The notes beneath the pieces are model-generated. The model saw nothing but the letters and a program-made list of their open reading frames with translations, made no database searches and was not told the DNA's origin. A stretch of DNA of 3,142 nt from a virus (lineage: Duplodnaviria > Heunggongvirae > Uroviricota > Caudoviricetes). The stretch lies in the IMG/VR virus record IMGVR_UViG_2740892234_000015. One strand, given 5' to 3'. A program made the translations under genes and the position numbers. The number at the start of each line of letters is the position of its first letter. Position 1 is the stretch's first letter. Shown piece after piece: positions 1,668 to 1,802 of this stretch.

Positions 1668-1802
1668 TCATCCACGGCAGTGGAACCACACGTCAAACAT
1701 TCGTTTCACAACTTCACGGCAGTAGAAGCCGTCGACATCACGGGTCAGGTCGTAGCGATTGCCGAATGTCTTGCGAACCCAGAACTCAAAAGCCGTATGC
1801 AT
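1668..1802 (-). CDS. Hypothetical small protein, 44 aa (MHTAFEFWVRKTFGNRYDLTRDVDGFYCREVVKRMFDVWFHCRG); not in the supplied ORF track
   Basis: I translated this by hand: ATG at 1802-1800, TGA at 1670-1668. GGAGG at 1813-1809 lies 6 nt upstream of the ATG and overlaps the TGA stop (1808-1806) of the upstream 80 aa gene, which suggests translational coupling. It fills the otherwise gene-free interval between the 80 aa gene and xis, on the same strand. No family recognised. Confidence 0.5.
   Translation of the reverse strand: MHTAFEFWVRKTFGNRYDLTRDVDGFYCREVVKRMFDVWFHCRG

What the first reader, a model, noticed from the sequence alone, without database searches (positions are those of the whole stretch)
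1668..1802. Unannotated 44 aa ORF filling the gap between the 80 aa gene and xis
Without this ORF there would be an unexplained non-coding interval of about 155 bp in an otherwise tightly packed operon. With it, the spacing becomes stop-SD-start coupled: GGAGG overlaps the upstream TGA, and the ORF ends 18 nt before the xis ATG. The product contains two Cys, one His and three Trp (FWVRK...FYCRE...VWFHCRG), so it could be a mini metal-binding or protein-interaction module. The coding potential is plausible but not proven.
Basis: seen in the sequence. Interest (0 to 1): 0.45.

Follow-up and report, generated by a model that had tools for sequence, protein, structure and literature searches.

The report
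Known small phage gene before xis
The 44-codon reading frame is a real, conserved and translated small prophage gene that public databases already list as a hypothetical protein; its function is unknown, and its family shows no conserved metal-binding residues.

Summary
The ORF at 1668-1802 (minus strand) exists as described: GGAGG lies 6 nt before its ATG, and its stop lies 18 nt before the xis ATG. It is a genuine gene. In 20 distinct alleles from about ten enterobacterial genera, only this frame is always open. Changes fall mainly at third codon positions (0.46 versus 0.18 and 0.14), and pN/pS is 0.23 against 1.4-1.8 in four of the five other frames; the fifth is explained in the report. 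It is not unannotated. RefSeq lists the identical protein (WP_000556584.1). The Sakai copy (ECs_5743, formerly ECs5482) differs at one residue. The family is also annotated in phages YYZ-2008 and Fels-1. It matches PHROG 3871 (unknown function). Published ribosome profiling of the Sakai copy passes that study's translation thresholds. The metal-binding idea fails, because no Cys or His is conserved across the family and the window allele itself has Phe at residue 40 where most alleles have Cys. The predicted fold is two helices joined by a hairpin loop, with no known structural relative. The gene nearly always sits directly upstream of an excisionase gene, from six different excisionase families, and is fused to Xis in one lineage. 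This hints at a link to excision but does not prove one. Overall it is an ordinary, already catalogued gene.

The parts
1668..1802 (-). CDS of the 44-aa micro-protein (PHROG 3871 family; identical to RefSeq WP_000556584.1)
   Evidence: The ORF is listed and annotated in the identical RefSeq DNA. It matches PHROG 3871 at E 1.5e-31 over the full length. It is the only frame open in 20/20 alleles, with pN/pS 0.23 and a median pairwise dN/dS of 0.12. RIBOseq of the Sakai copy passes that study's translation thresholds.
1809..1813 (-). Shine-Dalgarno GGAGG of the micro-protein gene, 6 nt before its ATG and abutting the TGA (1806-1808) of the upstream DUF4222 gene
   Evidence: Read from the sequence. 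A purine-rich SD-like motif sits at the same position in 18 of 20 diverged alleles, although the surrounding sequence differs.
1650..1667 (-). 18-nt spacer between the micro-protein stop and the xis ATG, containing the xis SD GAGG (1655-1658)
   Evidence: Read from the sequence. In the 48-aa relatives the spacer is 7-9 nt and the xis SD overlaps the stop codon (GTGTGAGGT).
1395..1649 (-). xis, an excisionase of the DUF1233 type, the downstream gene
   Evidence: Pfam PF06806 at E 2e-29, PHROG 539 excisionase, annotated xisR in RefSeq.
1806..2048 (-). Upstream 80-aa DUF4222 gene (the family of the RgdR regulator). Its stop is 3 nt before the micro-protein ATG.
   Evidence: Pfam PF13973 at E 9e-16. 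RgdR is described as a DUF4222 protein in PMC10877973 and characterised in PMC3378721.
75..1361 (-). Tyrosine integrase, the last gene of the same leftward gene string
   Evidence: Pfam Arm-DNA-bind_2 plus Phage_integrase. The RefSeq context places it next to mlrA.

Best explanation
The interval 1668-1802 (minus strand) encodes a genuine 44-residue cytoplasmic micro-protein. Most relatives are 48 residues long.

Where it sits. It belongs to a narrow family of temperate enterobacterial phages (PHROG 3871). It lies in the accessory 'exo-xis' stretch of the leftward early operon of an Sp15/Stx-type lambdoid prophage, in the order DUF551, (28-aa peptide), DUF4222, this gene, xis, int.

What is shown:
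- The frame is under purifying selection.
- It has its own SD and ATG.
- The Sakai copy carries ribosome footprints in an uninduced lysogen.
- It is already annotated as a hypothetical protein.
- Its predicted fold is helix (residues 3-13), a hairpin loop carrying the near-invariant YDLTRDxxGxY motif, then helix (30-43).
- No metal-ligand set is conserved.

What is inferred:
- The aromatic residues probably form the core of this small fold.
- Its stop lies 18 nt before the xis ATG here, and 7-9 nt in most relatives, where the xis SD overlaps the stop codon. Ribosomes finishing this ORF are therefore well placed to start on xis, so the two are probably made together from the same early transcript.
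- The peptide most likely acts in trans by binding another protein.
- My preferred guess, at about 0.35, is that it modulates the excision and lysis-lysogeny module (Xis/Int level or activity). This rests on its position directly before excisionases of six unrelated families and on one natural fusion to Xis.
- A general role directed at the host is about equally likely.
For: Coding:
- In 20 distinct alleles from about ten enterobacterial genera (loci listed), mean pairwise differences by codon position are 0.175, 0.144 and 0.46. pS is 0.68, pN is 0.16, and the median dN/dS is 0.12.
- Only this frame is stop-free in 20/20 alleles. Its pN/pS is 0.23, against 1.36-1.77 in four of the five other frames.
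- An SD-like motif is retained in 18/20 alleles.
- There are 49 homologue clusters. 437 IMG/VR contigs and 44 phage records encode it.
- It matches PHROG 3871 at E 1.5e-31.

Already annotated.

Translation: ECs5482 is the same gene as ECs_5743, shown by a 135-nt coordinate offset that I verified on ECs2997 and ECs3004. Its values in LB are RNA RPKM 118.6, footprint RPKM 38.0, ribosomal coverage value (RCV) 0.32 and coverage 0.83. In BHI they are 51.9, 15.8, 0.38 and 0.77. The study's thresholds are RPKM >= 1, coverage >= 0.5 and RCV >= 0.25.

Fold: pLDDT 85.

No rival element: no promoter or terminator match, no Rfam match, and RNA folds with z-scores of -0.4 and +1.3.

Link to xis:
- By my tally, about 96 of 103 loci have an excisionase directly downstream. 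These loci are highly redundant.
- Among the 18 species-level genome loci, 12 are directly upstream of xis and 4 lie within one to three genes of it.
- The excisionases fall into PHROGs 539, 66, 1553, 2917, 1300 and 629.
- An in-frame fusion to a DUF1233 Xis occurs in L022.
Against: - No functional experiment exists, and no homologue has a known function.
- The link to xis is positional only.
- In two genomes the gene sits before the Q antiterminator gene instead (L015, L020). In three others a LexA-like gene lies between it and xis (L014, L018, L021).
- The fusion is a single cluster of two sequences. It could be an accident of adjacency.
- The AF2 model of the fusion was of low confidence (pLDDT 62, pTM 0.52).
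- Six unrelated excisionase families make a specific Xis-binding partner less likely.
- The RIBOseq signal is modest, with an RCV only just above the threshold.
Confidence: 0.9

Rival explanations
1. The peptide is a mini zinc- or metal-binding module that uses its Cys and His residues.
For: Most alleles carry C28 and a C-terminal WCHCRG motif.
Against: - No Cys or His is invariant. Residue 28 is C/A/V/S/G, residue 40 is C/R/S/V/Q/F/Y, residue 41 varies freely, and residue 42 is C/A/L/F/R/W.
- The window allele has F40, so only C28, H41 and C42 remain, and this allele is found in 10 loci.
- There is no zinc-finger Pfam match.
- AF2 folds the peptide confidently as two helices without needing a metal.
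Confidence: 0.04
2. The interval is really a non-coding element (a promoter, an sRNA or a structured leader for xis/int), and the ORF is incidental.
For: A 45-codon open frame alone is not statistically remarkable. Lambda has an internal promoter near xis (my own knowledge).
Against: - The substitution pattern is codon-periodic and synonymous-biased in exactly this frame.
- Synonymous sites are near saturation, so the DNA itself is not conserved.
- There is no sigma-70 promoter-like or terminator-like site, no Rfam hit and no RNA fold above background.
- Ribosome footprints cover 77-83% of the ORF.
Confidence: 0.02
3. It is only a leader ORF. Translating it serves to deliver ribosomes to xis, and the peptide itself has no function.
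For: The stop-to-start distances are short (18 nt here, 7-9 nt in relatives), and the xis SD overlaps the stop codon in most relatives.
Against: - Strong purifying selection acts on the amino-acid sequence across genera (dN/dS about 0.12).
- The gene is kept intact where it is not next to xis (L015 and L020 before Q).
- The same module forms the N-terminus of longer proteins (P0077, P0078).
Confidence: 0.04
4. It is a partner or co-factor of the adjacent DUF4222 (RgdR-family) regulator rather than of the excision module.
For: In 77 of 99 loci the upstream gene is a DUF4222 gene, with a 3-nt gap in 75 of them. RgdR was proposed to act as a co-factor with other regulators (PMC3378721).
Against: - Those loci are mostly near-identical E. 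coli and Shigella prophages.
- In other genera the upstream gene belongs to at least ten other families, while the downstream excisionase position is kept.
- According to the paper, RgdR complemented the mutant from a plasmid described as carrying ecs1581. I could not check whether that clone also carried the small ORF.
Confidence: 0.1
5. It is a general early accessory protein aimed at a host target, as other small lambdoid early-operon proteins are (host takeover, anti-defence or protease inhibition). Its place next to xis would then simply reflect being the last cargo slot of the operon.
For: - It also occurs in the pR-side region before Q (L015, L020).
- It lies in the exo-xis region, whose genes modulate host physiology and the lysis-lysogeny choice (PMC10789677).
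- Its neighbours are mosaic.
Against: - It has no match to any defence-related model.
- It has no structural relative.
- It does not explain why the gene keeps the slot directly before xis across six excisionase families.
Confidence: 0.35

Closest known systems
PHROG 3871 (phage protein family of unknown function), including RefSeq WP_000556584.1, Sakai ECs_5743/ECs5482, phage YYZ-2008 gp03, Fels-1 STM0895.1n and BP-4795 ORF3
   Same: It is the same family, and for WP_000556584.1 the identical protein. The HMM match is full length, and the position before xis is the same.
   Different: Nothing beyond allelic variation. The window allele has F40 where most alleles have C40, and it is 44 aa rather than the more common 48 aa.
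Named small proteins of the lambdoid exo-xis region (lambda/Phi24B Ea8.5, Orf60a, Orf61, Orf63, Orf73, Ea22)
   Same: Same genomic compartment (between exo and xis on the leftward early operon). All are small, non-essential-looking accessory genes reported to bias lysis versus lysogeny (PMC10789677). From my own knowledge, Ea8.5 occupies the slot just before xis in lambda.
Translationally coupled upstream ORFs in polycistronic phage operons
   Same: The stop-SD-start arrangement is the same on both sides of the gene (3 nt and 18 nt here). In relatives the xis SD overlaps the stop codon.
   Different: The peptide sequence itself is under strong purifying selection, and the gene also occurs away from xis. 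It is therefore not a mere leader.
Lambda CIII-type small regulators (short helical early-operon peptides that inhibit a host protein)
   Same: Similar size, helical character and early-operon location. This is an analogy from my own knowledge only.
   Different: No homology, no tested activity, and no amphipathic-helix signature was examined.

Membership tests
PHROG 3871 | Significant full-length match to the family HMM | tested here: met
   E 1.5e-31, residues 1-44 against profile positions 1-44 of 48.
PHROG 3871 | Conserved core motif F-E...R-Y-D-L-T-R-D-x-x-G-x-Y...V-K-R-M-F-x-V-W | tested here: met
   All nearly invariant columns of the alignments are present in the window protein.
Real protein-coding gene (as opposed to a chance ORF) | Frame kept open, with synonymous-biased substitutions in diverged relatives | tested here: met
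   20/20 alleles are open only in this frame. pN/pS is 0.23 against 1.36-1.77 in four of the five other frames, and third-position divergence is 0.46 against 0.18 and 0.14.
Real protein-coding gene (as opposed to a chance ORF) | Direct evidence of translation | tested here: met
   Published RIBOseq for the Sakai copy, which differs by one residue: footprint RPKM 38.0, coverage 0.83 and RCV 0.32 in LB. The data come from an uninduced lysogen and the signal is modest.
Zinc-finger / metal-binding mini-protein | A set of three or four invariant Cys/His ligands | tested here: not met
   Only F5, G25 and Y27 are invariant. All Cys and His positions vary, and the window allele lacks C40.
Zinc-finger / metal-binding mini-protein | Measured metal content | not testable with these tools
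   This needs purified protein.
Excisionase / recombination directionality factor | Winged-helix or HTH DNA-binding domain matching an excisionase family | tested here: not met
   No Pfam, NCBIfam or PHROG excisionase match. The predicted fold is two helices and a hairpin loop.
Exo-xis region accessory genes of lambdoid phages | Located between exo and xis on the same strand | tested here: met
   In the RefSeq context of the identical DNA, and in Sakai Sp15, the order is exonuclease ... DUF551, DUF4222, this gene, xis, int.
Exo-xis region accessory genes of lambdoid phages | Homology to a named member (Ea8.5, Orf60a, Orf61, Orf63, Orf73, Ea22) | tested here: inconclusive
   There were no hits to any solved structure by sequence profile or by fold. 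I did not compare directly with the sequences of all named members.
Sequence-independent leader ORF | Peptide sequence free to vary | tested here: not met
   Median dN/dS is 0.12.

The most novel reading that the evidence does not exclude
The micro-protein is a dedicated accessory factor of prophage excision. It would be made together with Xis through translational coupling and would tune Xis or Int activity or stability, whichever excisionase family the phage carries. That would make it a previously unrecognised third component of many enterobacterial int-xis modules.
Probability: 0.2. Interest if true: 0.55.

Novelty: already known. Interest (0 to 1): 0.2.

Why it matters
As found, it matters little. 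The gene is already in RefSeq, in several phage records and in PHROGs, and its translation has been recorded. The useful outcomes are corrective: the gap is coding, and the metal-binding idea can be dropped. The work also yields one modest lead. A strongly conserved 44-48-residue protein keeps the slot directly before excisionases of six different families, including in Shiga-toxin prophages. If it influences excision or induction, it would bear on prophage stability and on the spread of Stx phages.

Tried and rejected
Searches that found nothing:
- Pfam and NCBIfam gave no match for the 44-aa protein.
- PADLOC defence models gave none.
- The family profile against all PDB sequences gave no hit at E <= 10.
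- Foldseek against BFVD found one family member (E 3.4e-3) and otherwise only weak matches to uncharacterised phage proteins (E >= 0.79).
- The afdb50 library was unavailable.
- The profile search of 1.84 billion representatives found only 36 proteins, so the family is narrow.
- Rfam, the promoter and terminator scans, and RNA folding found no non-coding element.

The Xis fusion:
- Searching with the Xis-fusion protein to see whether fusions recur returned only that one cluster.
- The truncated fusion P0073 gave a low-confidence model that says nothing about domain packing.

Literature:
- Searches for the locus tags found no functional study.
- The peptide sequence is not in the Huecker supplements, so I made the link through coordinates.
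- The 'Cryptic Bacterial Microproteome' preprint does not mention prophage, integrase or excisionase in its main text.

Full report
**What is in the window.** All genes in the window lie on the minus strand:
- integrase, 75-1361;
- DUF1233-type excisionase xis, 1395-1649;
- the 44-codon ORF, 1668-1802;
- an 80-aa DUF4222 gene, 1806-2048;
- a 28-codon hydrophobic ORF, 2053-2139;
- a DUF551 gene, 2136-2726.

After a run of ten N (2766-2775) comes the unrelated core gene ypeC, so the window crosses a scaffold join. The identical DNA in E. coli 2013C-3264 lies next to mlrA (yehV), in a lambdoid prophage with the order lambda-type exonuclease ... ead/Ea22-like, DUF551, DUF4222, small ORF, xisR, int. 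Prophage Sp15 of Sakai has the same layout. The ORF therefore sits at the distal end of the leftward early operon, in what the literature calls the exo-xis region (PMC10789677).

**Checking the observation.**
So are the 18-nt gap to the xis ATG, with its own GAGG, and the 156-bp interval the ORF fills.
- GGAGG abuts the upstream TGA rather than overlapping it.
- The composition was misread. There are 2 Cys, 2 His, 2 Trp and 6 Phe.
- The ORF is not unannotated. RefSeq annotates it as WP_000556584.1 in the identical DNA, and as related hypothetical proteins in diverged prophages. Sakai carries ECs_5743. Phage YYZ-2008 has gp03. Fels-1 has STM0895.1n, whose note cites BP-4795 ORF3. Some older or automatically annotated records do omit it: VT1-Sakai AP000400, phiP27 and Klebsiella phage MK416014.

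**Is it a gene?** An open 45-codon frame is not significant on its own, so I tested conservation.
- Protein searches found 49 clusters in Escherichia, Shigella, Salmonella, Citrobacter and Enterobacter. 44 phage records, including Klebsiella phages, 18 species-level genomes reaching Pantoea, Serratia, Kosakonia, Raoultella and Trabulsiella, and 437 IMG/VR contigs also encode it.
- For 20 distinct alleles aligned without gaps, mean pairwise differences at codon positions 1, 2 and 3 are 0.175, 0.144 and 0.46. pS is 0.68 and pN is 0.16. The median pairwise dN/dS is 0.12.
- As a control I repeated the calculation in all six frames. Only the called frame is stop-free in all 20 alleles, with pN/pS 0.23. 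Four of the other frames give 1.36-1.77. The fifth, the frame on the opposite strand that shares its third codon positions, gives 0.38 but has stops in every allele.
- A purine-rich SD-like motif is kept 4-15 nt before the start in 18 of 20 alleles, although the flanking sequence differs.
- The protein matches PHROG 3871 over its full length at E 1.5e-31.
- Direct evidence of translation exists. In Huecker et al. 2017 (PMC5597208), the 135-bp gene ECs5482 at 2942020-2942154 of the older Sakai record is one of the short annotated control genes. The neighbouring genes ECs2997 and ECs3004 show that the old and new coordinates differ by exactly 135 nt. ECs5482 is therefore today's ECs_5743 at 2942155-2942289.
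- Its values in LB are RNA RPKM 118.6, footprint RPKM 38.0, ribosomal coverage value 0.32 and coverage 0.83. In BHI they are 51.9, 15.8, 0.38 and 0.77. These pass that study's criteria of RPKM >= 1, coverage >= 0.5 and RCV >= 0.25.
- The Sakai allele differs from the window allele at one residue (97.7% identity to VT1-Sakai).

**Rival non-coding readings.** The region 1300-2200 has no sigma-70 promoter-like or terminator-like site. The window has no Rfam match at E <= 1. The RNA around either end of the ORF folds no better than shuffled sequence, with z-scores of -0.42 and +1.31. Synonymous sites are close to saturation, so the nucleotide sequence as such is not conserved. These readings are rejected.

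**What kind of protein is it?**
- AlphaFold2 with the family alignment gives a confident small fold (mean pLDDT 85). Helix 3-13 is followed by a hairpin-like loop carrying the near-invariant R-Y-D-L-T-R-D-x-x-G-x-Y motif, then helix 30-43.
- Among predicted viral structures, the only clear match is another family member.
- A profile search of 1.84 billion representative proteins finds just 36 hits, so the family is narrow.
- The more distant members show what is essential. Only F5, G25 and Y27 are invariant, and M1, E6, Y17 and D22 are nearly so. Every Cys and His position varies: residue 28 is C/A/V/S/G, residue 40 is C/R/S/V/Q/F/Y, and residue 42 is C/A/L/F/R/W.
- The window allele itself carries F40 instead of the usual C40. 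It is a real allele, seen in 10 of the loci collected.
- A conserved metal site is therefore not supported. The conserved aromatic and aliphatic residues more likely form the hydrophobic core, which is my inference.
- A few longer proteins carry this module at their N-terminus. One has a weak, sub-threshold match to a Lar-like zinc ribbon after it.

**Genomic association.**
- The upstream neighbour changes with the host group. It is a DUF4222 gene in 77 of 99 loci, nearly all E. coli or Shigella, and belongs to at least ten other families elsewhere.
- The downstream neighbour is much more constant. By my tally, about 96 of 103 loci have an excisionase starting 18 nt or less after the stop, or overlapping it.
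- Those excisionases belong to six PHROG families: 539 (DUF1233), 66 (AlpA-like), 1553, 2917, 1300 (PrtN-like) and 629 (Exc).
- The collection is highly redundant. Among the 18 species-level genome loci, 12 are directly upstream of xis. Four are separated from xis by one to three genes, usually including a LexA-like gene. Two, Intestinirhabdus L015 and Serratia L020, sit before the Q antiterminator gene instead.
- In most relatives the ORF ends ...GLSVV-TGA-GGT, so the xis SD overlaps the stop codon, with 7-9 nt to the xis ATG.
- One lineage (L022) has an in-frame fusion of the complete small protein to a DUF1233 Xis. A search with that fusion found no other example. Its predicted structure was of low confidence (pLDDT 62, pTM 0.52). 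The fusion is therefore a hint, not proof.

**Most likely mechanism.** The following are shown: a real, translated micro-protein gene with a helix-loop-helix fold and no conserved metal site, tightly packed between a DUF4222 gene and xis. The following are inferred:
- It is expressed with the delayed-early leftward transcript.
- Its termination site is placed so that ribosomes can pass on to xis.
- The peptide acts in trans by binding a partner.

My preferred guess for the target is the excision and lysis-lysogeny module, at about 0.35. A general host-directed accessory role is about equally likely at 0.35, and it fits the two Q-adjacent cases better. A role as partner of the DUF4222/RgdR-type regulator is about 0.1. 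A pure leader-ORF role is contradicted by the selection on the peptide.

**Comparison with what is known.** The ORF is a member of PHROG 3871 and is identical to an existing RefSeq protein. By position it belongs with the exo-xis accessory genes of lambdoid phages (Ea8.5, Orf60a, Orf61, Orf63, Orf73, Ea22), but I detected no homology to any solved structure. It is not an excisionase and not a zinc finger.

**Verdict.** Its function remains unknown, and interest is low. The one modest lead is the conserved slot before excisionases of different families.

Noticed in passing
window 2053-2139 (-): A 28-codon hydrophobic ORF (MMNWPEAFTAVGVAIAVAFILYSLFRWG) overlaps the DUF551 stop (ATGA) and ends 4 nt before the DUF4222 start. 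It is not annotated in the identical RefSeq DNA. Intact variants of 22-28 aa, some sharing only the N-terminal WP(D/E/T)AF motif and a hydrophobic tail, occur in 49 of 107 collected loci. These include L022 and Klebsiella phage L105, where the ORF lies directly before the PHROG 3871 gene. It may be a real but unannotated membrane micro-protein.
   Followed up: partly
window 2766-3142: A run of ten N is followed by the core chromosomal gene ypeC (DUF2502), which is present in 5425 of 5426 E. coli genomes and is not adjacent to this prophage in complete genomes. The window therefore spans a scaffold join, and the DUF551 gene's upstream context is missing.
   Followed up: yes
window 1806-2048 (-): The 80-aa neighbour is a DUF4222 protein. 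It belongs to the family of RgdR (ECs1581), a prophage-encoded activator of LEE/type III secretion and repressor of motility in EHEC. The paper notes that multiple divergent copies exist per genome. Whether this copy has regulatory activity is unknown.
   Followed up: partly
L022 3962/3977-4336: A natural in-frame fusion of the complete small protein with a DUF1233 excisionase, followed by an integrase. It was found on two metagenome-derived contigs and in no other cluster.
   Followed up: yes
window 1683-1685 (codon 40 of the ORF): The window allele has Phe at residue 40, where the commonest allele and most relatives have Cys (WFHCRG versus WCHCRG). Both alleles are widespread (10 and 23 of the collected loci).
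   Followed up: partly
P0077 and P0078 (metagenome proteins), residues 4-47: The same about 44-residue module forms the N-terminus of longer proteins (105 and 139 aa; also PHROG 343). In P0078 it is followed by a zinc-ribbon region with weak, below-cut-off matches to the Elf1 and Lar (restriction alleviation) models.
   Followed up: no
L105 (Klebsiella phage MK416014) 1801-2149: In this record the 48-aa family member is not annotated. The downstream AlpA-like excisionase CDS is called from an upstream ATG that overlaps it by 41 nt, and the likelier start is the ATG 7 nt after the small ORF's stop.
   Followed up: partly
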